Positions 47,019-64,000 of a DNA stretch of 64,000 nt are shown piece after piece. The position numbers and the translations under genes are program-made. The stretch lies in the NCBI GenBank assembly GCA_963729675.1, contig CAVSOV010000014.1, positions 162,181 to 226,180 of the forward strand, in the 5' to 3' direction. Source of the DNA: an uncultured Acidobacteriaceae bacterium (GTDB lineage: Bacteria > Acidobacteriota > Terriglobia > Terriglobales > Acidobacteriaceae). The notes under the pieces were generated by a model that saw only the letters and a program-made list of their open reading frames with translations, did no database searches and was not told the DNA's origin. Position 1 is the stretch's first letter. The number at the start of each line of letters is the position of its first letter.

Positions 47019-47049
47019 TTGACAGGGGGGTGGGGGCGGGTTCTATAAC
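47019..47049 (+). promoter_or_regulatory. Putative sigma70 promoter for the Zn-finger/activator module
   Basis: TTGACA (47019-24) and TATAAC (47044-49); 19-nt spacer contains G runs whose length may be miscalled. Confidence 0.55.
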
Positions 47050-47054
47050 CGCAG

Positions 47055-47318
47055 AACTCCCTCAGTGGACGGCGGGCTCGGAGATTCGAAAATCCGGCGG
47101 CCGAGATCCAGACTCTGGGAGCAAGAAATGTTGGGGCCGGTGTCTCCCATGGACCGGCCTTACCCAACCGACACAAACAGACCCCAGGCTGGGGGCGGCA
47201 CTGCGCCGAGCAAGAGAGTGCAAACGCCTGTCAGCCGGGAGGTCTCAGCAGCCTGTACGAGCCCATCCGACCGCTCATTCGAGAGGCTCGTCAGGGGACG
47301 TGTGTACCTGGAGAGAAA
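47055..47318 (+). ncRNA. Candidate structured leader RNA
   Basis: Several long stems visible by eye (47130-47168, 47179-47245) and mutually exclusive pairings of 47257-47264. Confidence 0.5.
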
Positions 47319-47522
47319 ATGAAGCACTTTTGCGTTGATTTGAAGGTATGTGAGGGGTGTGGGGGCCTTTGGCTCCGCGCCCAGGAACGGATCCAGAACC
47401 ATGGGGTGTATTGCCGGAGCTGTGCGCTGCTGCTGTCGGAGTTTCCCGCTCCGCGCCAGCGCAGCCGGGCAGGACGCAAACGGAAGCTGCGGTTGGCCGT
47501 TTGTGAAGGGGGTTCGAAGTGA
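47319..47522 (+). CDS. Small Zn-finger-like protein (CxxC...CxxC, basic tail)
   Basis: 'CEGCG...YCRSC'; GGAGAG RBS; stop overlaps the next start (GTGA). Confidence 0.65.
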   Translation: MKHFCVDLKVCEGCGGLWLRAQERIQNHGVYCRSCALLLSEFPAPRQRSRAGRKRKLRLAVCEGGSK

Positions 47523-48226
47523 CGGCAGGAACCCGGTCGAATCAGTCGGTTGGAATTCAGGCGAATGAAACGGTGAGACGAGAGAGGAACGAGATGGCGG
47601 GGTCGGAAATACGGAAGGCAGTAAGCGGATTGCACCTGGTGCACGTTTCGCGCAGAGTGCTGGCAACGGAACTTCGCGAGGCGACAACCGGGCGGCCAGT
47701 GGCAGTACCCAGGATCTGGGCTGTCGCGGAGAACGTTTCAGCCCAGCCCAGGCGTGACCCAGCCGAGGCGATGCAGGCGCTCATTGCCGAAGGCCAGCCA
47801 GTTCCGCCGAAGCTCGAACTCGCCTTCTACCGCAAGTACACCGAGGCGATGCTCCGCCGCTATCTGCGCATGTCGATGGAGGTCGGCCGTGTGCCGTCGC
47901 TCATGGGCCGCGAGATGTTTCGCGGGCACGTCTCGCACTACAAGGTGGAAGGCTTCGACGACGGAGTCATCTTCTGCGTCGACGTCGAACGGTGCCTGGG
48001 CAAACTCCGGAAAACCGATCAGCACCTCATCCAGCGGATCGCACTCCAGGGCTACACGCAGGAGGAGGCAGCCCCGCTGCTCGGGCTGAGCGTCCGCTCC
48101 TGCATTGTGAAGTACGGGGAGGCGTTGGATCGACTTACAGAAATCTTTCTCGCTGGCCGTCTTTTGGAGCCTCAAAAATGTTGTCAAGACCCAGAAATGG
48201 TGGAAAACTGGCTAAACAACCTTTAA
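47519..48226 (+). CDS. Sigma-70 region 4/HTH-like transcriptional regulator, candidate late-gene activator
   Basis: C-terminal 'DVERCLGKL...LIQRIALQGYTQEEAAPLLGLSVRS....GEALDRL' matches the sigma-4-type HTH pattern. Confidence 0.65.
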   Translation: MTAGTRSNQSVGIQANETVRRERNEMAGSEIRKAVSGLHLVHVSRRVLATELREATTGRPVAVPRIWAVAENVSAQPRRDPAEAMQALIAEGQPVPPKLELAFYRKYTEAMLRRYLRMSMEVGRVPSLMGREMFRGHVSHYKVEGFDDGVIFCVDVERCLGKLRKTDQHLIQRIALQGYTQEEAAPLLGLSVRSCIVKYGEALDRLTEIFLAGRLLEPQKCCQDPEMVENWLNNL

Positions 48227-48299
48227 TCAACAGCTTGGCCGTGGAAAAATCGTTGCAGGTTAATTTCACTCGGCTTGGTATTCTATAGAAGTAAGGATC

Positions 48300-48374
48300 A
48301 AGCGGGAGACCTCACCGGGGTCCCCAGCGAGCGTTGTTTGCTCGATGGGGTGGCCTCACTGGGGTCTCCCGCTT
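48300..48374. repeat. ~75-nt imperfect palindrome containing a REP-like core
   Basis: AAGCGGGAGACC...GGTCTCCCGCTT outer stem with inner CCCCA/TGGGG and CGAGC/GCTCG stems; core resembles 56153-56185 on the opposite strand. Confidence 0.7.
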
Positions 48375-48433
48375 TACGTTTGGGGGTTTAAAGGGTGCGG
48401 TGTAACGGGAAAAGACAGGGGCGGTGGTCGGGG

Positions 48434-48694
48434 ATGGGAACGGAGCTGGCGGCAGAGGCTGAGGAGCCGCAGGAGTCGGTGCAGAAGCCGCTGCGGCCGC
48501 GCCAGTGTCACAAATATCTGCAGAAGACGCTGGCATCGGAGTTCCCGAAGATTCTCAGCGGGTTCATCGACGAAGCGCGCAAAGGCGGCTGCGCGCACAT
48601 GAAGCTGGCAGTGGAGCTGCTGGAGCCGGCCAGAGACGAAGGACGGCATCGAAAGGGGTCGGCCCAACGACTTCTTGAAGAGTTGGGCGAATGA
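48434..48694 (+). CDS. Small helical protein, candidate terminase small subunit
   Basis: 86 aa; 'IDEARKGGCAHMKLAVELL' resembles the TerS oligomerisation helix-turn motif (A-x-x-G-x-x-x-x-x-K-L); functional call is an inference. Confidence 0.4.
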   Translation: MGTELAAEAEEPQESVQKPLRPRQCHKYLQKTLASEFPKILSGFIDEARKGGCAHMKLAVELLEPARDEGRHRKGSAQRLLEELGE

Positions 48695-48768
48695 TTCGGA
48701 ACCTATGCAGGCTCTGGAGCATCGGATTCAGAGATGTTCGCGGCCGATATACTTAAGAACTTGCAGGG

Positions 48769-49662
48769 ATGAAGATTCGCCTGGCTGTGTCGATGGTGGG
48801 ACTGGTGGCGGTGGTCGGCTTGACCGGCTGCTTTCGGACGACGCACATCGTCCAGCAGACCCAGCCTCCGGACATGTACAAGTCGACCTCGGTAGAAAAC
48901 CTGGAAAGAATCATTTCGGAGAGGGACGCGTCCATCAAGACGCTGAATGCGGCGGTCTTGCTGACGGCCAGCACGGGCGGTGGCAAAGAGGGCAAGGTCA
49001 TCACCTACACGTCCTTCAAGGGCTACATCTTCGTGCGCAAGCCGCGCGATCTGCGGGTGATTATGCTGCTTCCGGTTCTCGGTTCGAGGGCACTGGACAT
49101 GGTCTCGAACGGCGACACGTTCACGCTTGTGCACGCCACCGGGGGCCACGGCGACGTATGGATTCAGGGCAGCAATACGGTGACGACGCCTTCAAAGAAC
49201 GGGCTCGAGAACCTGCGGCCGCCTGTTTTCTTTGATTCGCTGATGGTTCCGGGCGTGAGTGACGACGAGCTGGTCAGTCTGACGGAATCGACCCGAGTGC
49301 TGCAGCCGCAGTCCAAGCACGGGCCCGCGATCGAGGAGCCCGACTACGAGCTTGAGGTGCTCAAGCGCGGGAGCGGGAATACGTTGCACACGACACGCCT
49401 GATTCACTTCAGTCGCGTCACTCTGCTGCCGTTTCAACAGGACATCTACAACGACAAGGACCAGGTCGAGACTTCCGCAACGTATGACAAGTACCAGGAC
49501 TTCAACGGGATTCAGTTCCCGATGCTGATCAACATCAAGCGCCCGCTCGATGAGTACACGCTGAAGCTGCAGATCACGAAGCTGACGCTGAATCAGCCGC
49601 TGGAGAACGATCAGTTCGAGCTGAAGGTCCCGGCGGGCGTCACCGTGGAACAATTGAAGTAA
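48769..49662 (+). CDS. Lipoprotein, LolA/LolB-like (DUF4292-like)
   Basis: Lipobox 'LTGC'; beta-rich domain; 'LNQPLENDQF'. Confidence 0.7.
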   Translation: MKIRLAVSMVGLVAVVGLTGCFRTTHIVQQTQPPDMYKSTSVENLERIISERDASIKTLNAAVLLTASTGGGKEGKVITYTSFKGYIFVRKPRDLRVIMLLPVLGSRALDMVSNGDTFTLVHATGGHGDVWIQGSNTVTTPSKNGLENLRPPVFFDSLMVPGVSDDELVSLTESTRVLQPQSKHGPAIEEPDYELEVLKRGSGNTLHTTRLIHFSRVTLLPFQQDIYNDKDQVETSATYDKYQDFNGIQFPMLINIKRPLDEYTLKLQITKLTLNQPLENDQFELKVPAGVTVEQLK

Positions 49663-49667
49663 TCGAC

Positions 49668-50717
49668 CTAGACAAGGCCAGCGCGGTGGGCGTGGCTGGC
49701 AATCTGTTCATTGATCTCAAGTGCAAGTGCAAGTGCAGCCCGGCCGGCTGCGCCGGTGACGCGCGGCTGCGTACGGTGGCGCACGGCGGAGAGAAAGTCT
49801 TCGAGTTCGAGCCGTAGCGGCTCGGCGCGCTGTGGGTCGAGCTTTTCGAGCGAGAGCCCGCGCGAGGGATGCGAGCCTTCGGCTGCGCCGAGCGCTGATG
49901 GAGCCGTACCTGCAATCAACTGCGCGAGCAGCGCAGGGTCGACCTTGATAGTGAGCAGCTCCTGGCGCGCGAAGTCGAGCGAGAGGTACTCGTGCGGCTG
50001 GAAGAGGCGCAGCTTGCGGACCTGCTCGGTGGAGACGCGGCTGGCGGTGAAGTTGGCGACGCAGCCTGATTCGAACTCGACGCGGACGTTGGCGATGTCC
50101 ACCTTGGGCGAGAGCACAGGCAAACCAACCGCCCGAACCTCTCTGATGGGTGATTTCGTCAGCGAGAGCACGACGTCGAGATCGTGAATCATCAGGTCGA
50201 GGACGACATCGACGTCTAGCGAGCGCGGTGTGAAGACCGAGAGCCGGTGGGCCTCGAAGAACATGGGGCGCGTGATGCGCTCCGCGGCCGCCGTGACGGC
50301 GGGGTTGAAGCGTTCGAGGTGGCCGATCTGCAGGATGCGATGGTTTCGTGCCGCAAGAGCGAGCACGCGGTCGGCCTCAGCAAGTGAGGCGGCGAAGGGC
50401 TTCTCGATGAGAACGTCGATGCCGGCGTTCAGGAGCCGCTCGGCGACGGCCGCGTGATGGATGGTGGGAACGCAGACGGATGCGGCGTCGAAGGGCGCTG
50501 CTCCGTTCTTCAGGGCTTCGTCGATTGAGGCGAAGCCATGGATGTTGTAGAGCACGGCGAGTTCGGAGCGGCGAGTCGCATCCGGCTCGATGAGCGCAGT
50601 GAGTTCGAGCTCGCCGGGGTACAGGGATTCAAGCTCGTGGTAGACGCGGAGATGGTTGCGGCCGAAGGCGCCGGCACCGACGACCGCGACGCGAGGTATG
50701 TGCTGGAGCGGGGACAA
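49668..50717 (-). CDS. Gfo/Idh/MocA oxidoreductase (GnnA-like UDP-GlcNAc 3-dehydrogenase)
   Basis: 'VAVVGAGAFGRNH', 'EKP', 'GHLERFNPA', 'DVDVVLDLMIHDLD', 'TASRVS'. Confidence 0.85.
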   Translation of the reverse strand: MSPLQHIPRVAVVGAGAFGRNHLRVYHELESLYPGELELTALIEPDATRRSELAVLYNIHGFASIDEALKNGAAPFDAASVCVPTIHHAAVAERLLNAGIDVLIEKPFAASLAEADRVLALAARNHRILQIGHLERFNPAVTAAAERITRPMFFEAHRLSVFTPRSLDVDVVLDLMIHDLDVVLSLTKSPIREVRAVGLPVLSPKVDIANVRVEFESGCVANFTASRVSTEQVRKLRLFQPHEYLSLDFARQELLTIKVDPALLAQLIAGTAPSALGAAEGSHPSRGLSLEKLDPQRAEPLRLELEDFLSAVRHRTQPRVTGAAGRAALALALEINEQIASHAHRAGLV

Positions 50718-50720
50718 GGG

Positions 50721-51065: not shown

Positions 51066-54000
51066 ATGCGAGGAATAAGACGGGGATTGACCCTGGTGAC
51101 GGCGATCATTGCGTTGCTGGGAGTGTGCTACGGAGCGGCGGCGCAGGTGGCGACGACGATGATCCAGGACACCGTGTACCGGGCAGACGGGACGCCGGCC
51201 AACGGAACAGTGGTCGTGGCGTGGCCGACGTTTACGACGGCTGCGGGCCAGGCAGTGGCGGCGGGTAATACGTCCGTGACGCTTGGGTCGAACGGAGCGT
51301 TGTCGCTGTCGTTGACGGCGAATGTGGGAGCGACACCAGCCGGAAGCTATTACACGGCGGTACTGCACCTGGATGATGGGACGACGAGCCAGCAGTACTG
51401 GGTGGTTCCGGTAAGCGGGACGCCGGTGACGCTGGCAACGATCGAGAGCCAGGTTCTGCCGACAAGTGTGGCGATGCAGACGGCGTCGAAGCAGTATGTC
51501 GATCAGGCGATTGCGCAGATCACCGGCGGAACGACGCAAACGACGACGTACGTGCCGACGACCGGCGGAACGATGACCGGGCCGCTGGTGTTGCCAGGCC
51601 GATCCTGTGACACCAACGCAGGCAGCGGACAAGCACTACGTGGATACGAACATCACAGCGGTGCTCGCAGGAGTGGGGCAGAAGGTAAGCTTGTTGCCCT
51701 TCGCGACGCAGACTATCTCTCAACCTGCGGGCACGCAGCTTCAAGTGAACGCGCTGAACGGCGAGCTGTACGCGAATCAGTTTCAAACGGGCGATGGCGA
51801 CAATGGCATCGCCAACGCGCTGGCGAGTCAGGACTGCGGAAGCGATTGCATGGTGATCGTGGATCCCAGCTACACAGAGGGCGAGCCGGTGATCACGACG
51901 CAGATTCCGAATCAGGGTCGCGTAGTGGATCTTCGCGGAGGAACGAGGTGGGAGACGTATGTGAATCCTCTGAGCCCATCCGGCGGCAGCACGGCGGAGT
52001 TTCTGGGCCAGATCTCAACGACCTCAGATGCAAACTCGCCCGCCGCAGGCAGCGGCGTGGGAAGCACGCGGCTGACCTTCAGTGTTTCGAATACGGCGAT
52101 GGCCGGCGGATCGAACCAACTGCCGGGCAACGTCGAGAATCCTCCGTACGGCAAGTCCAACTACGGCGTGTCGTCGCAGACCGGCAACTACTACACCGAA
52201 GGCCAACATGTGCAGGACGAGCATGTGATCAACTGCTATGCGGTTGGGGACTGCCTTGAAGGCAGCTGGTTTTTGAAGAGCTCGGGCGGCTACAGAGATG
52301 AGGCCGATGAGGGTGCGCATCCCTTCGACCTTCAGGTGAGCGAAGACAACAACACCTTTCAGGGAACGTGTTCGGGCGGCTGCACGACGGGATCAACGTC
52401 ACTGTTTGTGATTTCGACGGTAAACGGAGGAACCCAGGGTGAGGGCCGATTCCTGATCGACAAGAACCCAGCGAAGACAATCAGCAACGGGCAGCTTGTC
52501 TCGGGTGGTTGGACGGTGTTGGCGCTCGCGAACTTTACGGGAACGAACTTTCCTGTGAGTGTCTTTATGCAGACTGCGGTCGCGGCGACCTCGCAACCGA
52601 AGAACATCGCTCCGGGTACGGTCACGCTTTCGATGGTAACGAGCGGAGCTCCGGCGGGGTTTGCGGTGGACACAAGCCAGTTGCCCTCGCAGTCGGGCGT
52701 GGCCTGCATTGCAGATACAAACGATGGGCGCTTTCCCAACTTCGAGACCGCGAACTACACAGTCGTTGATGCGAGTCACATCACCTTCACGCTGAACAAG
52801 GTCCATGGGGCCGGGGCTGTGGTCGCCGTCGGTGGGTTGTGCGGGTATGGCATCGAGCAGACCGTAGATACGGTCGGTTCCGTGCGGCAGGTGTTTCCGG
52901 TGGTCGGATCGCCGAACGCGACGTCACTTTACTATGCGGGGGCGAGCACGGCGGTGCTTGGGCAACGACGCCCTGTCAGAGCACAAGCGGCTATCAGAAC
53001 ATTTCGCTGCAGGTCGCATCGATCGTCCGCCATGGCAATGTTGTCACGGCCACGCTGGCCGGCAACACGCCAGTGGATGTGAATGGCTTGACGATGACGG
53101 TTAGCGGAGTGGCCGATGCAAGTTACAACGGCAGCTTCCAGGTAACCTCCATCGGTGGAAACGTGCTGACCTATAGCAATACAGGTCCGGACAGCACAAG
53201 CACCGGCGGAACGTTTTCACTGCTGACCGGAGGATACGTGTTGTATCCCATGGCAGAGATCCTGAGCGTCTACAACACGAGCACGAAGCAGGTGGATGGA
53301 CAACTGACCCTCGCTGCAAACACCGTGGCCTGGGCAGCAGGCGATGCGGTCGAGGCGCCTCACTACTACCAGCAATTGACCGCTGCGGATACTGAATGGA
53401 TCACGCAGTATGTGCCGCGTCCGATCCAGTACAGCAGCGCCGGCAAGCTTTACATGGGGCAGGTTGGCCCTGGCATGCGGGGATGGCAGGTTCAGAATGG
53501 CGTGCCGCCCAGCAACTACGTTGGTGCCGGAGGAACGCATGAACTGCCTGATGATGCCTATGTGGTGGCGGGCCCGTGGAGGAACGACTTTGAAGTGGAT
53601 GCGGGGACGGAGTCGGTGATTCGTGCGCACTGCAACCTTCATGGCTGCAATCGATGGGACTCCGGCTACAACTTCTATTCGAACTGGATTCGGCGACGGG
53701 CGAGGACAGCTCTGTACTATTCGCCGCAGTTGAGCACGAGCGATCTGGTCGCTCGGCGGAGGGCAATATTCACGTTATCACCGACAGCGCTCTCGGCGCC
53801 TGCGATCAGTGCGACGACCCTGAACGCGACAACTGTGAATGCGACGACGCTGAATGGACGACGACGATTGCAGGAGGCGCGATCTCCGGCACGACGGTTA
53901 CGGGCAGGCTCAGCTCCGGAGGCGGGGCCGCAGGCTTATTCGTGACCGACAATCACACGTCGGATGCCGTCCAGTGTGGAGTCGCAGGACGTGACCGGCT

Positions 54001-54519
54001 ACTCTTCGGTTGGGTTGATGGACAATACCGGAGCGCAGGCCGGATCGTTCGGTTACGCCAACCCTTCGGCTGTAAGCTCCTTTGCGGGCGCGGTCTTCTT
54101 CAACAGTGATAACCACACCATGAAGTTCAGCACGAACAACGGAGTGTCGCCGTCGATCACGATCGATACCGGCGGGGAATGTCATGCTGCCGGGGTCAGC
54201 CGAGGTCAGCAACAGCGGTGCGATCAGCGCAAATCAGGTGAGCGCGCCAGTCCTGCGGTCGGGAACGGCGGCGAACACGGATCTGGTGGGAACGCTGACG
54301 GTGAACGCCGGTGCGACGAGTTCGTCGAGCTATAGCTTTACCGGCAGCTACGGCTCCGCTCCGGTGTGCGTCGTGCAGCCGCAGAGTGCGGCGGCAGCAG
54401 ACGGTTGCTGCGGTTGGCGCGATTGCGCCGCAGGTCTCTACGGCGGCGTTTCGGTGAGTGTGCAGACGGCGCCCACGAGTGCGGTGACCTTCGGGTACGA
54501 GTGCGTGGGCAGAAACTAG
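51066..54519 (+). CDS. Large Thr/Ser/Gly-rich fibre/spike-like protein with Sec signal peptide, multiply frameshifted
   Basis: GAGG RBS; 'MRGIRRGLTLVTAIIALLGVCYGAAA-Q'; fibre-like motifs 'ASKQYVDQ' and 'GGTMTGPLVLP-GDPVTPTQAADKHYVD'; pieces 51066..52259, 51607..53082, 52839..53945, 53964..54335 and 54184..54519. Confidence 0.6.
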
Positions 54520-54590: not shown

Positions 54591-56133
54591 GTGGCGAAGA
54601 GACAGTTGGACGATGTTGAGGCACTGAGGGAGATGGGCCGCCGGATGGACCGGCGGCCCGATTATTTGATCGAGGTTTGCAGAGAGGACGCTGTGCATCC
54701 GCACCCGCGAGGGTCAGTTGAAGCGGCTGATTGCGAATCCTGCGCAGCGCGAGTTCGAGCAGAGATGCGGCCGGCAGAATATTGTGCTGAAGGCGCGGCA
54801 GATGGGCATCACGACGTGGGTGTCGGCGCGGTTCTTTCTGCGCACCATTACGAGGCCAGGTACGTTGACGTTGCAGGTCGCGCATACGCGCGAGGCCGCG
54901 GAGTCGATCTTTGCGACGGTGCGGAGGATGTGGGAAGGACTGCCGGATGATCTGCGCGAGGGCCCGCTGCGGTTGTCGCGTGCGAATGCGGGGCAGATGG
55001 TGTTCGGTGAGATCGACAGCGAGTTTCGCATTTCGAGTGCTGCGGAATTGAATGCAGGCCGCGGCCTGAGTGTGCAGAACCTGCATTGCAGCGAGGTGAG
55101 CCGATGGCCGGGCGATGCTGCAATGACGCTCGCGGGTCTTCGGGCGGCGCTCGCCCCGCGGGGAGAGATGGTACTGGAGAGCACGCCGAACGGAGCCTAT
55201 GGCGCGTTCTACGACGAGTGGTGTGCGGCTACGGATGAGGCGAATGCAGAGGACGGTGTGGTGCGGCACTTCTTCCCATGGTGGATGGAGCCGGAGTATC
55301 GCGGGCCGCTAGTTGCTGCTGATGCGATGAGTGCGGAGGAGCGTGGGTTGGTTGTAAAGCATGGCCTGAGCGCGGAGCAGATTGGCTTCCGGCGCGGGCT
55401 GGAGCGGACGTACGGTCTGCTTCGTGCGCAGGAGTTTGCCGAGGATGCGGAGACCTGCTTCCGTACGACAGGGGCCTGTTGCTTTGATGTCGATACATTG
55501 GACCAGCGGATGCGAGAGGCGCCGGAGCCGATCGAGAAAAGACGCAACGGAGCGCTGCAGGTTTGGCTGAGGTCAATTCCCGGTCGCGAGTATGTGGTTG
55601 CGGTGGACTCGGCGGGCGGAGGCGAGGAGGGCGACTTTGCGGCGGTGCAGGTGGTGGAGATTGCGACTGGGTTGCAATGTGCGGAGCTTCGCGAGCGGCT
55701 GCGGCCGGAGGATCTGGCGCGCGTCTCGGTAGAACTGGCGAAGGAGTACGGTGGCGCGCAGATTGTTGTCGAACGTAATAATCACGGTGCAGCCGTGCTT
55801 GCGTATCTGGAGACACGGGAAAGTTACAGGCGCTTGTACAGGCAGCATGGTGAGGTCGGCTGGCTGACGTCGGCGGCATCGAAGCCGGAGATTGTCGCGC
55901 GCATGGGAGTACTGCTGAGCGAGACGCCGGAGCGATTCATGAGCCGGAGGCTATTGGCAGAGTGCAGAACCTTTGTCGCGGATGAGCGCGGTCGCGCGGC
56001 TGCGGCGGCCGGGTCGCATGATGACCTGGTGATGGCCATGGCCATTGCGCAGGCGGTGCGGGCAGAGACCACTGCATGGAGCGGACGCGCCTCCGGCGCC
56101 CGACCAGTACATGCAGTGCAAGCGCGGGCATAG
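54591..56133 (+). CDS. Terminase large subunit, frameshift ~54677
   Basis: Walker A-like 'LKARQMGITT', Walker B-like 'LHCSEV', motif C 'ESTPNG', nuclease 'AVDSAGG', 'VERNNHG', 'HDDLVMA'; GAGGAG RBS before GTG 54591. Confidence 0.9.
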
Positions 56134-56200
56134 CACTGCTAACCTGCTAGTGACTACCCCGGCGAACAAGTTCGCAGGGGATCCCGTAAGGAGTCGGGCC

Positions 56201-57067
56201 TTGGCGGTTGTGGCGGTGCAGGCGATTCGCAGGATGCGCGGTGGCGCGCAGAGCCAGCTGATGCTGGGCGCGGACGGGAATCTGTGGGTGGTGAAGTTTC
56301 AGAACAACCCACAGCACCGCCGCGTATTGGCGAATGAACTGATTGCGACGCGACTGGCGGAGGCGATTGGGCTGTCTGTTCCAAAGAGCGATGTCCTCGA
56401 AGTGAGCGACTGGCTGATTCGCAACAGCCCGGGCATGGTGCTGGAGTTCGGCAAAGGTGTGCGTGAGCTTTGCGCGGCCGGGTTGCAGTTCGGGAGCCAG
56501 TTTGTCGGCGGGTTGATGCCAGGACAGGTAGTGGATTATCTGCCGGAGCCGCAGATGGAAGAGGTGCGCAATCTTGCGGAGTTCGCGGGGATTCTTGCGC
56601 TGGATAAGTGGACCGGCAACTGCAACGGAAGACAGGCGGTGTTCGAGCGGAGGCCGCGCGAGCGAAAGTATCGCGCGGTCTTCATCGACCAGGGATATTG
56701 CTTCAACGCGGGCGAGTGGAGTTTTCCGGACTCACCGCTGCGGGGAGTGTTCCCGCGCAACCAGGTCTATGCCCGCGTGACGGGCTGGGCCGGCTTTGAG
56801 CCGTGGCTGTCGCGGATCGAAGAGTTTGAAGCGGGCCGGCTGTGGGCGATTGCAGAGGAGGTTCCGCCGGAGTGGTACGGTGGCGACCTCGGGACGATCG
56901 AGCGGCTGATGGAGCAATTGCTGGCGCGGCGCAGCAGAGTGAGAGAGTTGATTGAGTCGTTTCGTGATTCGGATCGCGAGCCGTTCCCAAATTGGGGCGC
57001 AGCGAAAAGTATTGTTGTGCCGAGGCGCTTTGCAGTTGCAGGCGCGGCTGGCAATCTGGTGATGTAA
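56201..57067 (+). CDS. HipA-like Ser/Thr kinase (HipA_2 type)
   Basis: 'MRGGAQSQL', 'WVVKF', 'LANE', 'LDKWTGNCNGRQ', 'FIDQGYCF'; AGGAG RBS before TTG 56201. Confidence 0.8.
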   Translation: MAVVAVQAIRRMRGGAQSQLMLGADGNLWVVKFQNNPQHRRVLANELIATRLAEAIGLSVPKSDVLEVSDWLIRNSPGMVLEFGKGVRELCAAGLQFGSQFVGGLMPGQVVDYLPEPQMEEVRNLAEFAGILALDKWTGNCNGRQAVFERRPRERKYRAVFIDQGYCFNAGEWSFPDSPLRGVFPRNQVYARVTGWAGFEPWLSRIEEFEAGRLWAIAEEVPPEWYGGDLGTIERLMEQLLARRSRVRELIESFRDSDREPFPNWGAAKSIVVPRRFAVAGAAGNLVM

Positions 57068-57086: not shown

Positions 57087-57908
57087 TTGGCGGAGCGGGT
57101 ACAGTGCGAGTTCTCTCTCATCCGGTATGTGCCGGATGTGGTGAAGGGAGAGTTTGCGAACATTGGCGTGGTGCTGCGCGAGGCGGGAGGTGCGGCCGGC
57201 GCGACCGTGCGATTCACACGCGACTGGAGTCGCGTGCGGTGCCTGGACCCGAATGCCGATGTGGAGCTGTTGGAGTCTCTGGAATCGGAGATTGCGGAGC
57301 GTCTGCGCGCAGGAGTTGAGCCGCGCGTGAACGCGAAACCCATGCTCGAACTATTGGAAGACACGCTTTCGAACAGCGTGCAAGTGACAGAGATGCGTGG
57401 GACGCTGGCGGAGAGTGTGCCAGCGGAGCTGGAACAGTTGATGCGGATGTATGTGGAGCCGCTCAAGGTTCCGGCGGTCCGCCGGAAGACGAGCGGGCGC
57501 ACGGCGATCGCAGGCAGGATGCGCGATGAGTTTGAGCGCGCCGGCGTGTGGGGGCTAATGCGGAAGCGAATCTCGGCCGCGCAGTACACGCGGCCGGGTG
57601 ATCCGCTGAAGATCGACTGCGGCTACCGGAACGGGCGCGTGCGCATGTTCCAGGCGGTGTCGCTGGAGAATGACGCGGAGGCGGCGAAGGGGCTCGCATT
57701 CTCGGCGGAGGCGCTGCGAGCGGGCGTGAGCCGAGTGGAAGGCATCGAGCTGGAGCTGACCGCGGTGATTGAGCCGATCACGTCAGTGGGGGATACGGAG
57801 ATGTATGGATTTGGCGTGGGAGCGATGGAGAGCGCGGCGATCCGTGTGCTCACCACGGCCGATCTCGGACGAGTTGCCGAGACGGCGCGGCGGGAGTTGC
57901 GAGTGTAA
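57087..57908 (+). CDS. DUF3037-domain protein, HipA-like kinase partner
   Basis: 'FSLIRYVPDVVKGEFANIGVVL' is the DUF3037 N-terminal signature. Confidence 0.85.
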   Translation: MAERVQCEFSLIRYVPDVVKGEFANIGVVLREAGGAAGATVRFTRDWSRVRCLDPNADVELLESLESEIAERLRAGVEPRVNAKPMLELLEDTLSNSVQVTEMRGTLAESVPAELEQLMRMYVEPLKVPAVRRKTSGRTAIAGRMRDEFERAGVWGLMRKRISAAQYTRPGDPLKIDCGYRNGRVRMFQAVSLENDAEAAKGLAFSAEALRAGVSRVEGIELELTAVIEPITSVGDTEMYGFGVGAMESAAIRVLTTADLGRVAETARRELRV

Positions 57909-59264: not shown

Positions 59265-59837
59265 TTGAGAGAGATGGAGGCGCGGCTGTCGAGGTCGCGC
59301 GGTTTGGCTGTGGCAGCGATGGCGGTGGAGTTCCCCGAAGTGAGTGGGCATCCGAATCGCCTGCCGTTTGAGGGATGTCTGACGCTGGTGGATGTGCCGA
59401 GCGATCGGGCACCGAGTGGAGCGCGAGGGCATCGCGTGGTGTTGACGAAGGAAGCTGCAGAAAAGGCGTTGCCGAGTCTGCTGGGCATGGCCGTCGACTA
59501 CAAGGCCGGGTGGGACGGACATGATGCGCGGCAGAAGTGCGGCATCATCACGTCGGCGCATCTCGAGGGACAGCGGCTTATGGTCAGCGGATTTCTGTTC
59601 GCGCGTGACTTCCCCGAACTGGAGAGACGCATGTGCGGCGTGAACGCGAGTGCTGACGGTGAGATGGGCATGAGCTATGAGCTTGCCGATGCGCACGTGG
59701 CGGATATGCGCGCGCAGGTGTGGACGCTGACTCGGGCGACGTTCACGGGTGCGGCAATCCTGCTGCGCGAGAAGGCGGCGTATCGAAACACGTCGTTCAA
59801 ACTTCGCAGACGTTGTAACGGACGAACAGCGGCTTAA
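59265..59837 (+). CDS. Prohead protease-like protein
   Basis: Position after portal; 'GHDAR' His, 'GMSYE' Ser and 'GAAILL..KAAY' resemble HK97/assemblin-type maturation proteases. Confidence 0.6.
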   Translation: MREMEARLSRSRGLAVAAMAVEFPEVSGHPNRLPFEGCLTLVDVPSDRAPSGARGHRVVLTKEAAEKALPSLLGMAVDYKAGWDGHDARQKCGIITSAHLEGQRLMVSGFLFARDFPELERRMCGVNASADGEMGMSYELADAHVADMRAQVWTLTRATFTGAAILLREKAAYRNTSFKLRRRCNGRTAA

Positions 59838-59857
59838 GAGCGACTGGAGGAAAAGGA

Positions 59858-60286
59858 ATGGAAGAGATGACTGCAGGTGAGTTGCAGACAGCGGCCGACA
59901 GACTGATGGAAGCGGCGTCGGCGCTGGAACGTACGGTGCTGCGCATGGCCGAGCAACAAGTGGCGCTCGCGGCCGAGGCGGAGTCGCAGGTGAGCCGCAT
60001 CGTTGCGACGGTGGAGACGCAGCGCGAGGCGGAACTGGAGCGCAAGCTCGCTGAGGCCGAGGCGAAGATCGCCGAGCTGGTCGCGTCTGCAGGTGTGCAG
60101 CCCGCCGGCCGTAAGACGCTGCCGACCTCGATGGCAACGATGCTCGCGAAGCAGGGCGTGGTGATGGACTCGGTGGAGGCAGGTGCGATTGATGGGGCGC
60201 TCACGAGTCTCAGCATCGAGCAGCGGATTGCTGTGAAGTCGGAGTTGATTCGCGCTGGCGTGCTGAATCCGTCGGACCGCGGCTAA
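59858..60286 (+). CDS. Coiled-coil scaffold-like protein
   Basis: Ala/Glu-rich heptads ('ELERKLAEAEAKIAEL') between protease and capsid genes. Confidence 0.55.
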   Translation: MEEMTAGELQTAADRLMEAASALERTVLRMAEQQVALAAEAESQVSRIVATVETQREAELERKLAEAEAKIAELVASAGVQPAGRKTLPTSMATMLAKQGVVMDSVEAGAIDGALTSLSIEQRIAVKSELIRAGVLNPSDRG

Positions 60287-60308
60287 GCGCAACGAATTCG
60301 TACAACGC

Positions 60309-60345: not shown

Positions 60346-60377
60346 CAAAAACAGGCAACAACAACTGAGGAGAATGA

Positions 60378-61349
60378 ATGAACGCGAAGTTTACTGAGAT
60401 CAGCGCAGCGGCGGACTACATCGGACCCGGCGCAATTGAGGTTCCCCTTTACCAGACCGAGATTCTCGACCTGGTTCGCCGCCGCGGTCCCTTTGGCCAG
60501 CGCATCAAGCAGGTGCCTGCGACCGGCCATCCGTCGCGCTACTTTGAGGAGCAGGCGATTCCCTCGCCCGCGGCATCCGCTGGCTTCATGGATCCGCGCA
60601 ATCTTGTGCCGCCCGTCGTGAGCCCGACGCGCGTGGAGCGCTCCGTTCCGCTGAAGGCGCTGGTCGCGCAGATCAACTACAACCTGTTCGATCTCGAGCT
60701 TGGCAAGCAGCAGGGCCAGTTCGCCTATCTGCAGGCGAAGGACCTCACCGACACCGTCGACGGCGTCCTGCGCACGCATGACGTCGCGCTGTGGAACGGC
60801 ACGGACACCAGCCTGAGCTCGCCGACGACGGCGCAGTACTTCGGCGCTGCCGGACAGATCGCCGGTGGTGGCAACACGGTAACCATCGGCGCTTCGGAGT
60901 CTATCGTCGATGGCCTCAAGTCCACGATCGCGCAGATGCTTTCGAACACCAGCTACGGCGTCCGTCCGACGGCGATCTACGCGAACCCGGTTCTGCTTGA
61001 CCTCATCGATCGCGAGATGAAGAGCGAGTTCAATGTCGTGTTGAACACAAAGGCCATCGAGGGCGGCTTCACTGTAAAGACGCTCTCTACGCAGGCCGGC
61101 GACATTCCGCTGATTCCAGAGTGGACACTGCCGTACACCGGCACGCCTGGGTCGGGTAGCGCTGTGCTTCCCGCGTACATCGTCACCGAGGACCTGATCG
61201 AGTATCACTGGCTCGGCGATCCCAACCCGCGCGTCTTCCAGCTGGGCATGCCCGGTTCGCTCGCGAGCCAGTATGTCGCGGTGAAGTTCGGCGCCGTTGT
61301 GGTGAAGGGCGCGAACTACGCGCACTACCAGGTGCTCGTCGACCGCTAA
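60378..61349 (+). CDS. Major capsid protein (HK97-fold inferred)
   Basis: 323 aa, strong GAGGAG RBS, host-like C-ending codon bias, canonical position; 'LWNGT', 'PTAIYANP'. Confidence 0.75.
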   Translation: MNAKFTEISAAADYIGPGAIEVPLYQTEILDLVRRRGPFGQRIKQVPATGHPSRYFEEQAIPSPAASAGFMDPRNLVPPVVSPTRVERSVPLKALVAQINYNLFDLELGKQQGQFAYLQAKDLTDTVDGVLRTHDVALWNGTDTSLSSPTTAQYFGAAGQIAGGGNTVTIGASESIVDGLKSTIAQMLSNTSYGVRPTAIYANPVLLDLIDREMKSEFNVVLNTKAIEGGFTVKTLSTQAGDIPLIPEWTLPYTGTPGSGSAVLPAYIVTEDLIEYHWLGDPNPRVFQLGMPGSLASQYVAVKFGAVVVKGANYAHYQVLVDR

Positions 61350-61419
61350 ACAGCGGTCGCCGAAATAGACCGCTAAACAGCAGCGTTGTCGCGGCTCAAT
61401 GACCCGAGCTGCAAGAAAT

Positions 61420-61461
61420 CCGCGGCGCGGCAAGGGAGAACCTGCTCTTGCCGCGCTGCGG
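61420..61461 (+). terminator. Long hairpin after capsid gene
   Basis: CCGCGGCGCGGCAAGGG...CTCTTGCCGCGCTGCGG. Confidence 0.6.
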
Positions 61462-61508
61462 ACAAAACTCTTCCTGCGCAAGCGGAAGGAATCTTTACGG
61501 AGGTGAGG

Positions 61509-62114
61509 ATGGGCTATCTATTGCCCTCGGACTATGTGGCGTACGGGCTGACGGCAGACACGCAGGACTCGTGGGTGACGGCGGCCTCGGCCATGATGGA
61601 GGCGTACTGCAAGCGGCCCACGCTGATGTCTGCGAGTTACACAGAGTATCTTCGGGTCTCGCGTCATACGCAGCGTGTGCGGCTGAGCTACGGTCCGCTG
61701 ATCAGCGTCGATGCAGTGCAGGCACGGTATGCGCGGCCTTCGCGAATGTTTCTCGAGGAGCAGCCCTTCGCGGTTGAGTTCGCCGAGGTCTTCGGCCTGC
61801 CGGGCACGTGGGCGACTGTTGATCCGGCGACGCTCGAGGTGAGTGTGCCTCTGGGTGAGTTTCGCTTCCCGTGGAATGTGATGGGACTGCGCTACGCGGA
61901 GGCAGAGGTGACCTACACTGCGGGGTTGACGACTGTGCCGGATGCGGTGAAGGTCGCGTGCGCGCAGATTGTGAAGAACGCGCAGGCTACCCCCGGCCTG
62001 AATGTGAAGTCGAGCAAACTGGATACGCTGCAGACGCAGTACTTCAGCGACTCGCTGCTGGACACCCAGGTGAAGGCAATGCTGCGGCCGTACGTTGCAG
62101 AGAGGATGGCTTAA
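61509..62114 (+). CDS. Head-tail connector (gp6/gp15-like)
   Basis: 'AASAMMEAYCKR', 'EVTYTAG..TVPDAVKVAC', 'VKAMLRPY' typical of siphovirus and GTA adaptors. Confidence 0.75.
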   Translation: MGYLLPSDYVAYGLTADTQDSWVTAASAMMEAYCKRPTLMSASYTEYLRVSRHTQRVRLSYGPLISVDAVQARYARPSRMFLEEQPFAVEFAEVFGLPGTWATVDPATLEVSVPLGEFRFPWNVMGLRYAEAEVTYTAGLTTVPDAVKVACAQIVKNAQATPGLNVKSSKLDTLQTQYFSDSLLDTQVKAMLRPYVAERMA

Positions 62115-62115
62115 C

Positions 62116-62511
62116 ATGGCTGACCTTCTATGCAGCGACGCGGCAGTGCGTAGCGCGGATGCATTGCTGAGAGCGAATGGCGGGCGGGCTGTGCTGCTTC
62201 GTCTTCCGGCGCCCGCCGTCGCGAACAACGACAGCGAGCAACTTGGACTTGCAACACCGCAGTTCCAGGATGTGGAACTCGCGCCGGCGACCTTTCGCGC
62301 GGCGGCCAAGACATCGACGCTGCTGATCTCCGGAAGCGCCGTGAAGGCAGTTGTGGGGAGCTTGAAATTCAATTCGGCAGAGGTGCTGTTTGAGACGGCA
62401 GCCGGAGTAGTTATCGATGGCGTGCTGTACACGATTCTGTCGAGCACAGCGACAACCGCGGATGGAGCGACTTATCTGTACAGCCTGGAGCTGGTTGCGC
62501 CTGATCGCTAG
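62116..62511 (+). CDS. Putative head-closure/head-tail joining protein
   Basis: 131 aa beta-rich protein ('VVIDGVLYTILS'); positional inference. Confidence 0.5.
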   Translation: MADLLCSDAAVRSADALLRANGGRAVLLRLPAPAVANNDSEQLGLATPQFQDVELAPATFRAAAKTSTLLISGSAVKAVVGSLKFNSAEVLFETAAGVVIDGVLYTILSSTATTADGATYLYSLELVAPDR

Positions 62512-62540
62512 AGGATGGTCGCGAAAGACATGGAGGAAGT

Positions 62541-63047
62541 TTGCAGAACGCGAAGGATACGTTTTACGAGCTGCTGCGTTCGCGCATTGCGGCTGCAAAT
62601 CCGGAGCGCACCATCGTGCTGCGCGGGGTGACGCGGCCGGGTGTGCTGGTTGAGGAAAACGAGCTTGTCTCGACGGTGACAATCTCCGACTGCTTTCGCC
62701 TGCGGTGGACCGACGCCACTGTGGATTCGGACAATGCGACGCCCATTGCAACGATGACCTGCGAGGTGTCGTACGAGACGGCGGGAACTGCAGGCAATGC
62801 CGGCATGGATCGCGGGCGGCTGCTGACGGCAATGGATGCCGAGCTTACTGAAGCGCTGAACAGCACGCCGCAAACCGCGATCAAGCAGAGCTATGCCGCG
62901 CTCGCAACGGGCGGAAGCGCGACGGCGATGAGCACGAACATCTGGTGGAGCGACGCAGAGCTTGGGCCTCTTGCGGTGAAGGCTGACCGCATTGGGCGAA
63001 CGGCCAAGGTGACGGTGATGAGCTGCGAGGAAGCAGGTGAGCTTTGA
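62541..63047 (+). CDS. Putative tail terminator
   Basis: 168 aa, GGAGGA RBS; positional inference. Confidence 0.45.
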   Translation: MQNAKDTFYELLRSRIAAANPERTIVLRGVTRPGVLVEENELVSTVTISDCFRLRWTDATVDSDNATPIATMTCEVSYETAGTAGNAGMDRGRLLTAMDAELTEALNSTPQTAIKQSYAALATGGSATAMSTNIWWSDAELGPLAVKADRIGRTAKVTVMSCEEAGEL

Positions 63048-63985
63048 ATTTGACGACAGAGACGATGCCTCCTGCGGTTCGCAGAGTGCGAGCCTATTTT
63101 GCGCCGGTGAATCGAGGAGCGAAGCAACCGACGATCTTCGACCCGGCGCAGCAGGGGATGTTCATGCCCGATGCGCCGCCTGCACCGTGGATTGACCTGG
63201 GGTGGATCAACGGGTTTGCGAGGAAGTCGGGGACGAAGATTGAGCCGGTGCTGGCCGGTGCACCTGCAACCCCGCAGATGCAGAGCCGCAATGCGGTCGA
63301 TGCGACGGTGGCCTTTCAGTTTGCGAGTTGGGGCAAGCTGCAGATGGCTCTCGCTGCGGGAACGCAGCAGATGAATCTGCTGAAGGCTCAGACTGGAGCA
63401 GCTGCCGCGGGATCTGGCGGAGTTGCGATTCCAGCGGTCGTTCTACAGAGCGGATCGACGGCGAGTGTGTTGCAGCTTGGTTCCGCAGCCGCAGACTTTG
63501 CGGTTGGCGAGACCGTTGTGGTCGACATCGACTACACGGGACAGCTGGGGTTCGTTGGGAGTGCCATCAGCGGAGCGTATGTGAAGAGCGCCCTGACGGA
63601 CGTCGACTATGTCCGCCGGGTGTCGCTGAACGTTGGGCGCATCTCAGCGATTGCGAACGGCGCGTTGACACTCGAGCAGCCGCTTCTGGCGGGGGCTCCG
63701 GCGAGCTCGATGAAGGTAAGCAGCGTCACTGGATTCTGCGATCGCGAGGGGTCTACGTTCTTTCAGGAATGGTCGGCGCTCTTTGTGGCGGAGGGTCAGC
63801 AGGGCGAACGCGTGCTGTGGCACTATCCGCGACTGCAGGCGATGGCGAGTGCTGCGGAGACCTCGGCTACCAGCGGTGGTGGGCTCGAGGTGCTGCGTCA
63901 GAGCGCGGCGTTTCGTGCGCTGCCAGTGAAGGATCCGGTGGATGGCGAGAGCGTTGTGTGCTTCCGCAGCTTCGTTTCGTGCTGA
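63044..63985 (+). CDS. Putative major tail (tube) protein
   Basis: 313 aa; 'PWIDLGWI' N-terminal motif and position after the terminator-like gene. Confidence 0.55.
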   Translation: MNLTTETMPPAVRRVRAYFAPVNRGAKQPTIFDPAQQGMFMPDAPPAPWIDLGWINGFARKSGTKIEPVLAGAPATPQMQSRNAVDATVAFQFASWGKLQMALAAGTQQMNLLKAQTGAAAAGSGGVAIPAVVLQSGSTASVLQLGSAAADFAVGETVVVDIDYTGQLGFVGSAISGAYVKSALTDVDYVRRVSLNVGRISAIANGALTLEQPLLAGAPASSMKVSSVTGFCDREGSTFFQEWSALFVAEGQQGERVLWHYPRLQAMASAAETSATSGGGLEVLRQSAAFRALPVKDPVDGESVVCFRSFVSC

Positions 63986-64000
63986 TGTTGACGGTGCCCC

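What the first reader, a model, noticed from the sequence alone, without database searches (positions are those of the whole stretch)
47019..64000. Candidate gene transfer agent (GTA)-like, domesticated phage system in an Acidobacterium
Seen: a compact co-oriented morphogenesis cluster (TerL 54591, portal 57985, protease, scaffold, MCP 60378, connectors, tail tube) with host-like composition. Between mltG and the window end there is no integrase, repressor/cro, replication, recombination or lysis gene and no att-like repeat. Putative regulatory and TerS genes (47319-48694) are separated from the structural genes by ordinary chromosomal genes (a lipoprotein and a GnnA-like oxidoreductase). Known: GTAs such as RcGTA, BaGTA, Dd1 and VSH-1 are chromosomal head-tail clusters that lack replication and integration functions and have regulators and fibres at separate loci. 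Inference: this is a vertically inherited GTA-like particle; I know of no characterised GTA from Acidobacteriota. The sequence right of 64000 is unseen.
Basis: partly seen in the sequence, partly recalled or inferred. Interest (0 to 1): 0.92.

Follow-up and report, generated by a model that had tools for sequence, protein, structure and literature searches.

The report
Domesticated phage particle locus, Acidobacteriaceae
A compact phage head-and-tail gene cluster with no integration or replication genes sits at the same chromosomal spot in most species of the soil family Acidobacteriaceae and has stayed intact under purifying selection, which makes it a strong candidate for a new, independently evolved gene transfer agent.

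Summary
A co-oriented cluster runs from window 51066 to about 67300, 3.3 kb past the window. It encodes a fibre-like protein, TerL, a HipA-like kinase, DUF3037, portal, two unknowns, an HK97-fold capsid protein, adaptor, two neck-sized proteins, a major-tail-like protein, a hub-like protein and three small proteins. Housekeeping genes follow. Contig C14 has no integrase, tRNA or att-like repeat near it.

- **Synteny:** the whole cluster lies in the same place, between the GFO/IDH/MocA oxidoreductase and the 2-oxoacid dehydrogenase E2 gene, in more than 20 species, including cultured Bryocella elongata.
- **Distribution:** the capsid gene matches, nearly always once, in 233 of 401 sampled family genomes (108 of 142 genera). 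It was found in only 1 of 243 genomes from other families of the class.
- **Selection:** every gene has dN/dS of 0.08-0.33, like the flanking genes.
- **Trees:** the element and flank trees share 7 of 8 splits.

Frameshifts in this assembly (fibre, TerL, hub, E2) are probably assembly indel errors.

It is not homologous to RcGTA families. Unusual features are a fixed HipA/DUF3037 defence-type pair, a Sec signal on the fibre-like protein and no tape-measure gene. Particle production and host-DNA packaging are inferred, not shown.

The parts
47319..47522 (+). 67-aa CxxC...CxxC small protein. It is the first gene of the regulator-like trio.
   Evidence: It has no family hit. Orthologues sit next to the structural genes in L018, L019, L144 and L145. 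It is absent where the element is lost (L056).
47519..48226 (+). 235-aa protein with a C-terminal sigma-70 region-4-like HTH. It is the candidate activator.
   Evidence: Weak hits only: PF08281 at E 3e-4, below the cut-off, and ECF-sigma NCBIfam models at E 1e-4 to 7e-3 on residues 154-209. It always lies upstream of the cluster in relatives.
48395..48694 (+). 99-aa helical protein with conserved Cys/His. It could be a small terminase without a DNA-binding domain, or a regulator.
   Evidence: It always follows the sigma-4-like gene and lies directly upstream of TerL in L018. It has no family hit. dN/dS is 0.20.
51066..54519 (+). Fibre-like protein with a Sec-type signal peptide. It is one ORF of 1123-1183 aa in relatives and is read in at least 4 frames in this assembly.
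   Evidence: Frames were traced by GC3 and translation. It is intact in L008, L012 and L020. The signal peptide is conserved in all orthologues. Short-read contigs lack the extra bases at 52962/52976 and 53975.
54591..56133 (+). Large terminase (TerL), with a 1-bp frame break near 54671 in this assembly.
   Evidence: It matches phrog_2 at E 6e-23. The N-terminus matches relatives only when read from 54591. Walker A, LHCSEV, STP and the nuclease Asp/HDD motifs are invariant in 15 species.
56045..57067 (+). HipA-like Ser/Thr kinase. The true start is probably near 56200.
   Evidence: It matches PF20613 HipA_2 at E 5e-9 and PADLOC PDC-M66A. It is conserved between TerL and portal in nearly all copies and is kept after loss of the structural genes in L056.
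57087..57908 (+). DUF3037 protein, partner of the kinase.
   Evidence: It matches PF11236 at E 1e-23 and PADLOC PDC-M66B at E 2e-12. A HipA-family kinase with a DUF3037 protein is the validated defence system DS-6/HipAD (PMC13092281).
57985..59229 (+). Portal protein.
   Evidence: It matches PF04860 at E 7e-50. It is the only portal in the genome.
59265..59837 (+). 190-aa conserved protein in the position of a prohead protease. Its function is unverified.
   Evidence: No hit in Pfam, PHROGs, NCBIfam or PDB profiles. dN/dS is 0.17.
59858..60286 (+). 142-aa helical protein in the position of a scaffold. Its function is unverified.
   Evidence: Position and composition only. dN/dS is 0.29.
60378..61349 (+). 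Major capsid protein with an HK97 fold.
   Evidence: The AlphaFold2 model has pLDDT 81.7. Foldseek matches many phage capsids at E down to 7e-13. Identity across the family is 72-98% and dN/dS is 0.077.
61386..62114 (+). Head-tail adaptor. The true start is probably about 40 codons later.
   Evidence: It matches phrog_442 at E 5e-17 on residues 47-241.
62095..62511 (+). 138-aa neck-sized protein of unknown family.
   Evidence: It is conserved in synteny. dN/dS is 0.33. It has no family hit.
62541..63047 (+). 168-aa neck or tail-completion-sized protein of unknown family.
   Evidence: It is conserved in synteny. dN/dS is 0.23. It has no family hit.
63044..63985 (+). 313-aa major-tail (tube)-like protein.
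   Evidence: Two of 11 orthologues match phrog_476 'major tail protein' (best E 4e-5). Atlas gives tube-family leads at scores of 0.82-0.85. The AlphaFold2 model was too poor to use.
63985..64000 (+). Start of the hub-like protein, which is 796-799 aa in relatives. It runs to L002:2415 with a frame break near window-equivalent 65068. Three small genes follow at L002:2452-2676, 2692-2961 and 3030-3293.
   Evidence: Reading frames are shown. The gene is intact in L008, L012 and L020. The Atlas's own model resembles phage hub and baseplate proteins. Short-read contigs lack one base at 65068. The small proteins are described.

Best explanation
This is a domesticated, vertically inherited phage-derived locus of the family Acidobacteriaceae.

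**Shown**
- It encodes a packaging ATPase-nuclease whose catalytic motifs are conserved.
- It also encodes a portal, an HK97-fold capsid protein, an adaptor, a major-tail-like protein and a hub-like protein.
- It has no integration, excision, replication or lysogeny genes.
- It has stayed at one chromosomal site through the divergence of many genera.
- Every one of its genes is under purifying selection.

**Inferred**
- Under some host signal, the upstream Zn-ribbon and sigma-4-like pair switches on the structural operons in a subset of cells.
- Capsids assemble on the portal.
- TerL, perhaps with the 99-aa protein acting as a small terminase that lacks a DNA-binding domain, fills them by headful packaging with host DNA rather than with a replicated element genome.
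- A short, unusual tail (tube and hub, with no tape measure) is added.
- The cell releases the particles, and the DNA is delivered to related cells. That is how a gene transfer agent works.
- The embedded HipA-like kinase and DUF3037 pair is a separable defence or toxin-antitoxin-type module. It may protect the locus or govern the fate of the producer cell.
For: **Same site and same gene order**
- More than 20 species-level genomes share the site and order, including isolates Bryocella elongata DSM 22489, Edaphobacter modestus DSM 18101 and strain KBS 146. The last two have an internal permutation but all genes intact.

**Distribution of the capsid gene**
- It is in 233 of 401 sampled family genomes and 108 of 142 genera, nearly always as one match without stops.
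- In the class sample it is in 41 of 57 genomes of the family and 1 of 243 from other families.
- In the phylum sample it is in 0 of 367 genomes outside the family.
- At least 559 species-representative genomes carry it.

**Selection and trees**
- dN/dS is 0.08-0.33 for all 16 element genes tested. The flanking genes give 0.07-0.24.
- The element and flank trees share 7 of 8 splits, and distances correlate at r = 0.94 with similar depth.

**No mobility signals**
- There is no integrase on the contig, no tRNA and no att-like repeat.
- Composition is host-like.

**Functional state**
- The TerL motifs are invariant.
- The capsid fold is confirmed.
- Regulators, fibre and structural genes are lost together in one genome of the same genus, so they form one functional unit.
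- The capsid protein has no tblastn match at E <= 1e-3 in 50,697 deposited phage records.
Against: - No particle, packaged DNA or transfer has been observed, and no RNA data were available.
- No tape-measure, chaperone or sheath gene is present, so tail assembly is unexplained.
- The fibre-like protein carries a Sec signal, which is odd for a part assembled in the cytoplasm.
- No endolysin was recognised.
- TerS is not identified.
- Protease and scaffold are unverified.
- About 30-40% of family genomes lack the capsid gene, so the element is dispensable.
- dS is near saturation (0.8-1.3), so the dN/dS values are rough.
- The flanking genes used as the host reference are linked to the element.
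- This assembly itself shows frame breaks. They are probably artefacts, but that is not proven for this strain.
Confidence: 0.6

Rival explanations
1. It is a domesticated particle kept for a purpose other than gene transfer. The purpose could be a killer particle against competitors, a defence device coupled to the HipA-like kinase (capsid and terminase proteins acting as bait or sensor, or interfering with incoming phages), release of DNA for biofilm matrix, or delivery of protein cargo.
For: - Conservation and selection show a host benefit but not which one.
- A defence-type pair is fixed inside the cluster and outlives it in L056.
- The fibre-like protein is exported.
- The tail is non-canonical.
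- A large phage contig carries a captured copy of the capsid gene, which hints at phage-element conflict.
Against: - TerL ATPase and nuclease motifs are invariant, and the portal is conserved. That argues for DNA packaging.
- All neck and tail genes are also under selection, which a pure sensor role would not need.
Confidence: 0.25
2. It is a mobile temperate phage or a capsid-forming satellite (PICI-like) that integrates site-specifically at one conserved chromosomal site. The shared location would then reflect repeated integration, not descent.
For: - IMG/VR and earlier papers list such regions as viral or proviral.
- Distribution within genera is patchy.
- One copy lies in another family of the class.
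Against: - There is no integrase, primase/replicase, repressor or att repeat.
- Host genes separate the regulators from the structural genes in one lineage.
- The element tree follows the flank tree with equal depth.
- There is one copy per genome.
- Internal permutation with all genes retained does not fit a genome that must package itself.
Confidence: 0.05
3. It is a cryptic prophage remnant with no present function, preserved by chance or only by the addictive HipA-like module.
For: - This assembly shows at least 8 frame breaks in about 20 kb.
- Many family genomes lack the element.
- The kinase pair persists alone in L056.
Against: - The frame breaks also hit the housekeeping E2 gene, and independent short-read contigs lack them.
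- In relatives every gene is intact, with dN/dS well below 1 across saturated synonymous divergence.
Confidence: 0.04

Closest known systems
RcGTA-type gene transfer agents of Alphaproteobacteria (Rhodobacter capsulatus, Caulobacter crescentus)
   Same: - It is a head-tail cluster of about 15-17 kb in the chromosome, with no integrase or replication genes.
- It has been inherited vertically through a large host clade, with repeated losses.
- Its genes are under purifying selection.
- It has dedicated sigma/HTH-type activator genes.
- It has an HK97-fold capsid. The RcGTA capsid (6tb9) is among the fold matches.
   Different: - There is no sequence-family relation: NCBIfam, Pfam and PHROG give only generic TerL, portal and adaptor hits.
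- It has no tape-measure gene.
- A HipA-like/DUF3037 pair lies between TerL and portal.
- Its fibre-like protein carries a Sec signal.
- The host phylum is Acidobacteriota.
- Function is untested.
Independently derived GTAs: BaGTA (Bartonella), VSH-1 (Brachyspira), Dd1 (Desulfovibrio), VTA (Methanococcus)
   Same: - They show that GTAs arose several times from unrelated phages.
- Their putative small terminases lack a DNA-binding domain (PMC11841831), as the 99-aa candidate here would.
   Different: Those were found by experiment. This one is known only from sequence. I ran no direct sequence comparison with them.
LypABC-controlled release of the Caulobacter GTA (PMC13236601)
   Same: A defence-type system is co-opted for GTA-linked lysis of the producer cell. 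This is a precedent for a role of the embedded HipA-like/DUF3037 pair.
   Different: LypABC is CARD-NLR-like and is encoded away from the GTA cluster. Here a kinase-type pair sits inside the cluster, and any link to release is speculation.
HipAD / DS-6 (PADLOC candidate PDC-M66) anti-phage system
   Same: It has an adjacent HipA-family kinase and a DUF3037 protein. Both PADLOC models match. The system has been validated as a defence in E. coli (PMC13092281).
   Different: - DS-6B also carries DUF1829, which was not detected here.
- The pair here is fixed inside a phage-derived structural operon.
'Group (ii)' Terriglobales proviruses of Demina et al. 2025 (PMC11924767), the acidobacterial prophage clusters of Eichorst et al. 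2018 (PMC5900883), and the shared Acidobacteriaceae-like contig in Sphagnum metagenomes (PMC12142844)
   Same: - These papers report widespread, similar 'proviral' regions in Terriglobales genomes.
- One record they name, OY843766, carries this capsid gene (L076).
- Strain KBS 146 was listed with a portal but no detected prophage, and it carries the element.
   Different: - Those papers treat the regions as (possibly active or degraded) prophages.
- None proposes domestication or a GTA.
- I could not check that their coordinates are this locus.

Membership tests
Gene transfer agent (functional class) | Chromosomal phage-derived head-tail structural gene cluster | tested here: met
   TerL, portal, HK97-fold capsid, adaptor, major-tail-like and hub-like genes are present.
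Gene transfer agent (functional class) | No integration, excision, replication or lysogeny-control genes; not autonomously mobile | tested here: met
   No such domain lies between mltG and the E2 gene. No PF00589 hit is on contig C14. There is no tRNA or att-like repeat.
Gene transfer agent (functional class) | Vertical inheritance in a host clade, single copy, under purifying selection | tested here: met
   Supported by synteny, family-wide single matches, dN/dS of 0.08-0.33 and tree congruence in 7 of 8 splits.
Gene transfer agent (functional class) | Particles package more or less random host DNA in pieces too small to hold the whole element | not testable with these tools
   This needs purified particles and sequencing. 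Capsid capacity cannot be read from the sequence.
Gene transfer agent (functional class) | Transfer of markers to recipient cells | not testable with these tools
   This needs culture experiments. Cultured carriers exist.
Gene transfer agent (functional class) | Small terminase without a sequence-specific DNA-binding domain | tested here: inconclusive
   The 99-aa candidate has no HTH and no family hit. Its position fits in L018. Its identity as TerS is not shown.
RcGTA-like GTAs (homology group) | Proteins match the RcGTA-type families used by NCBI and Pfam | tested here: not met
   NCBIfam gave only TIGR01537 portal_HK97, below its cut-off, and nothing for the other structural proteins. Pfam gave only Phage_portal.
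Caudoviricetes HK97-fold capsid proteins | HK97 fold of the major capsid protein | tested here: met
   The model has pLDDT 81.7. Foldseek probability is 1.0 to HK97, T5, SPO1, D3 and GTA capsids.
Temperate prophage | Integrase, att sites, repressor/cro, replication and lysis modules | tested here: not met
   None was found. The cluster is only about 16.5 kb plus a 1.4-kb regulator block.
PICI / capsid-forming PICI satellites | Integrase, AlpA-type regulator, primase-replicase, variable att-site insertion | tested here: not met
   There is no integrase or primase domain. The site is fixed and the element co-diverges with its flanks.
HipAD / DS-6 / PDC-M66 defence pair | Adjacent HipA-family kinase and DUF3037 protein | tested here: met
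   PF20613 and PF11236 match, as do PDC-M66A and PDC-M66B. Defence activity was not tested, and the DUF1829 of DS-6B was not detected.

The most novel reading that the evidence does not exclude
This would be a sixth, independently domesticated gene transfer agent, the first in Acidobacteriota, carried by most Acidobacteriaceae (one of the most abundant soil families). It would have three features unknown in other GTAs:
- a HipA-like kinase/DUF3037 immune-type module built into the structural operon and co-opted to control the producer cell;
- a Sec-exported fibre-like protein;
- a tail built without a tape measure.
Probability: 0.3. Interest if true: 0.9.

Novelty: new variant of a known kind. 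Interest (0 to 1): 0.8.

Why it matters
Only a handful of GTA lineages are known, and how common such agents are in nature is an open question. A family-wide candidate in Acidobacteriaceae would matter in several ways.

- **A testable system:** it would make GTA-mediated gene flow in soil and peat directly testable. Cultured carriers are at hand: Bryocella elongata DSM 22489, Edaphobacter modestus DSM 18101, strain KBS 146 and Granulicella sp. S190.
- **Soil viromics:** these loci are currently counted as viruses or proviruses in IMG/VR and in published surveys. Particles that carry host DNA would also explain part of the 'non-viral' DNA in soil viromes.
- **Mechanism:** the locus offers a natural case of an immune-type kinase module fixed inside a domesticated phage operon. 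It also offers a tube-and-hub tail without a tape measure.

Tried and rejected
- **Profile searches against PDB sequences.** Searches with the capsid, 190-aa and 313-aa proteins gave nothing useful.
- **AlphaFold2 of the 313-aa protein.** An 11-row alignment gave pLDDT 45, so the model was not used for fold search.
- **Complex prediction.** The 99-aa protein with the TerL N-domain gave no answer (score 0.01), which is evidence neither way.
- **The look-up of sequencing runs.** No RNA holder was listed, so nothing can be said on expression.
- **Rfam scan of 45000-64000.** It gave only two sub-threshold hits: a BjrC68-like hairpin at 60290-60345 and a chance miRNA match.
- **Promoter and terminator scan.** Sites were not enriched over shuffles. 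Hairpins lie after DUF3037 (57932-57961) and after the last small gene.
- **Motif upstream of the fibre gene.** GGCGCGCAACG at 50993 is conserved there but does not recur elsewhere in the element.
- **Tape-measure search.** PF10145 has no match in this 86%-complete genome.
- **TerL read as truncated.** I first read TerL as starting at 54718 and the 54591 ORF as a wrong frame. Comparison with relatives reversed that reading.
- **Fibre and hub as pseudogenes.** I considered this and rejected it as probable assembly error.
- **Tail type.** I considered a podovirus-like reading, with the hub as a nozzle. I could not decide.

Full report
**Where the window lies and what follows it.** The window is G000:C14:162181-226180, and contig C14 continues for 25.9 kb to its right. 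The phage-like genes end at window-equivalent position about 67300 (L002:3293). The next genes, on the other strand, are ordinary: the E2 component of a 2-oxoacid dehydrogenase, a short-chain dehydrogenase, a lipoate-protein ligase, a DUF1348 protein and dihydrolipoamide dehydrogenase.

**Gene content.** From left to right the region contains the following genes.
- mltG/YceG lies at 45718-46764.
- A 67-aa CxxC protein lies at 47319-47522.
- A 235-aa protein with a weak sigma-70 region-4 match lies at 47519-48226.
- A 99-aa helical protein lies at 48395-48694.
- A LolA-like lipoprotein lies at 48769-49662.
- A GFO/IDH/MocA oxidoreductase lies on the minus strand at 49668-50717.
- A fibre-like gene lies at 51066-54519.
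- TerL lies at 54591-56133 (phrog_2).
- A HipA_2-type kinase and a DUF3037 protein follow.
- The portal lies at 57985-59229 (PF04860).
- Proteins of 190 aa and 142 aa follow, without any family hit.
- A 323-aa protein lies at 60378-61349.
- A head-tail adaptor follows (phrog_442).
- Proteins of 138 aa and 168 aa follow.
- A 313-aa protein ends at 63985.
- An approximately 800-aa protein starts at 63985 and runs past the window end.
- Three small proteins of 74-89 aa end the cluster.

The evidence for the less obvious assignments is as follows.
- The 323-aa protein has no Pfam, PHROG, NCBIfam or PDB-sequence match. A 37-row alignment of distant homologues gave an AlphaFold2 model with pLDDT 81.7. 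Foldseek places that model firmly among HK97-fold capsid proteins.
- The 313-aa protein is probably the major tail protein. Two of 11 orthologues match phrog_476, and the Atlas gives tube-family leads.
- The approximately 800-aa protein resembles phage hub and baseplate proteins in the Atlas's own model.
- No tape-measure, chaperone pair, sheath or distal-tail gene fits anywhere. In relatives with clean assemblies the genes abut each other, leaving no room.

**Assembly quality.** In this window the fibre gene is spread over at least four frames. TerL breaks frame near 54671, the hub gene near 65068, and the housekeeping E2 gene is also split. In relatives the fibre gene (1123-1183 aa), TerL, the hub gene (796-799 aa) and E2 (561 aa) are single open frames. 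Contigs from four soil metagenome runs that hold near-identical sequence lack single bases at 52962/52976, 53975, 54671, 65068 and 67045. The breaks are therefore most likely indel errors of this assembly, not decay.

**Is it inherited or mobile?**
- *Synteny.* A portal search of one genome per species found 22 loci at 57-95% identity. Wherever enough flank was present, the entire cluster was there in the same order and between the same host genes: lipoprotein and oxidoreductase on one side, E2 on the other.
- *Distribution.* The capsid gene was found in 233 of 401 sampled genomes of the family and in 108 of 142 genera. It was nearly always one match, at 72-96% identity among the listed matches, none of them with an internal stop (the tallies include two unpublished genomes, G002 and G025, on which no specific claim rests). 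A class-wide sample gave 41 of 57 genomes in the family against 1 of 243 in twelve other families. A phylum-wide sample gave 0 of 367 outside the family. A scan with organism names returned at least 559 carrier species, among them cultured strains.
- *Cultured strains.* Bryocella elongata DSM 22489 has the canonical order. Edaphobacter modestus DSM 18101 and strain KBS 146 have all the genes but with the 190-aa-to-tube block moved ahead of the fibre gene, so that the portal abuts the hub gene.
- *Selection.* Pairwise Nei-Gojobori dN/dS medians are 0.08 (capsid) to 0.33 for every element gene tested, against 0.07-0.24 for the flanking host genes. dS is 0.8-1.3, so the values are rough.
- *Trees.* Concatenated element proteins and concatenated flank proteins give trees that share 7 of 8 splits. 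Label permutation gave a mean of 0.27 and a maximum of 3. Pairwise distances correlate at r = 0.94, with similar depth (0.216 against 0.192).
- *Mobility signals.* No tyrosine integrase lies on the 252-kb contig. There is no tRNA and no border repeat of 12 bp or more. This is the only portal in the genome, and composition is within host range.

Together these results exclude a recent prophage, a site-specific satellite and a decaying remnant as the main explanation.

**The unit of selection.** In Granulicella-like, Edaphobacter-like and IMG/VR copies, the Zn-ribbon and sigma-4-like genes (and, where it was detected, the 99-aa gene) lie directly beside the structural genes. In the window's lineage the lipoprotein and oxidoreductase genes have come to lie between them. 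One complete genome of the window's own genus (G286) has lost the regulators, the fibre gene and all structural genes together. Glycoside-hydrolase genes lie in their place, yet the HipA-like and DUF3037 genes remain at the same spot. The regulators, the fibre gene and the particle genes therefore behave as one unit, and the kinase pair is separable. That pair matches both genes of PADLOC candidate PDC-M66. It corresponds in domain content to the validated defence system DS-6/HipAD (PMC13092281). A few IMG/VR copies lack it.

**How it probably works.** TerL keeps its Walker A, its LHCSEV catalytic glutamate, its STP coupling motif and its RNase-H-like nuclease acidic residues unchanged in 15 species. 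The portal and capsid proteins are conserved. DNA-filled heads are therefore the most likely product. With no replication or integration genes, the DNA available for packaging is the host chromosome. That is the working principle of a gene transfer agent. The known examples arose independently in Alphaproteobacteria, Bartonella, Brachyspira, Desulfovibrio and Methanococcus, and their small terminases lack DNA-binding domains (PMC11841831). The 99-aa protein could be such a small terminase, but this is not shown. Activation by the sigma-4-like protein, release through the small membrane-like proteins, and any role of the kinase pair in producer-cell fate are all inference. The Caulobacter GTA offers a precedent for the last: there a defence-like system controls lysis (PMC13236601).

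Three features do not fit a textbook particle.
- There is no tape measure.
- The fibre-like protein carries a Sec signal peptide that is conserved in all orthologues.
- No endolysin was recognised.

**Relation to known things.** The element is not a member of the RcGTA homology group, since no such families match. Its capsid family has about 320 clusters at 50% identity and no match among 50,697 deposited phage genomes. The nearest outgroup examined (54% identity) sits in a 127-kb phage-like contig with a much larger portal. IMG/VR holds 23 contigs with the capsid gene, and nearly all are the same element. Published surveys appear to have met these regions and called them prophages or proviruses (PMC5900883; PMC11924767; PMC12142844). 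I found no paper that proposes a GTA in Acidobacteriota.

**Verdict.** This is a domesticated, vertically inherited phage-derived particle locus that is specific to Acidobacteriaceae and widespread within it. It is best read as a candidate GTA of independent origin with unusual features. Function awaits experiment.

Noticed in passing
L053:10001-10969 (IMG/VR contig of 123.6 kb): A large phage-like contig carries a lone homologue of the element's capsid gene (71% identity). Its neighbours include DNA ligase, thymidylate synthase, polynucleotide kinase, tRNA nucleotidyltransferase and RNA ligase genes. In the capsid tree the copy nests inside the element clade, as if a phage had captured the host element's capsid gene.
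   Followed up: partly
L056:6500-8244 (G286, same genus as the window): A complete genome has lost the regulators, the fibre gene and all structural genes. It keeps the HipA-like kinase and DUF3037 genes at the same site. Glutaminase-A-like and GH127 glycoside hydrolase genes fill the gap.
   Followed up: partly
L144/L147 and L145/L148 (Edaphobacter modestus DSM 18101; strain KBS 146): These carry a permuted version of the cluster. The block from the 190-aa gene to the tube gene lies ahead of the fibre gene, and the portal abuts the hub gene. All genes are intact.
   Followed up: yes
window 51066-54700; L002:1068, 3045, about 4000: This assembly carries many single-base indels, including one in the housekeeping E2 gene. 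Other genes of this genome may be falsely split in the same way.
   Followed up: partly
L006, L011, L023, L082, L087, L096, L111: MAGs labelled Verrucomicrobia, Candidatus Aquilonibacter, Clostridia or Acetobacteraceae carry the element. Where flanks were read (L006, L011) they are Acidobacteriaceae-type. These are probably taxonomic mislabels or misbinned contigs.
   Followed up: no
L060 (G929, another family of the class): This is a divergent but complete-looking copy of the element (capsid 61%, portal 52% identity). It is the only hit among 243 sampled genomes from other families of the class. Either the element is older and was often lost, or it was transferred once.
   Followed up: partly
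window 50721-51060, minus strand: A short conserved minus-strand ORF (73-122 aa in relatives) lies next to the oxidoreductase gene. A conserved motif, GGCGCGCAACG at 50993-51003, lies upstream of the fibre gene and does not recur elsewhere in the element.
   Followed up: partly
window 60290-60345: There is a sub-threshold Rfam match to sRNA BjrC68 (27 bits against a gathering score of 39) in the gap before the capsid gene. It is probably just a hairpin.
   Followed up: no
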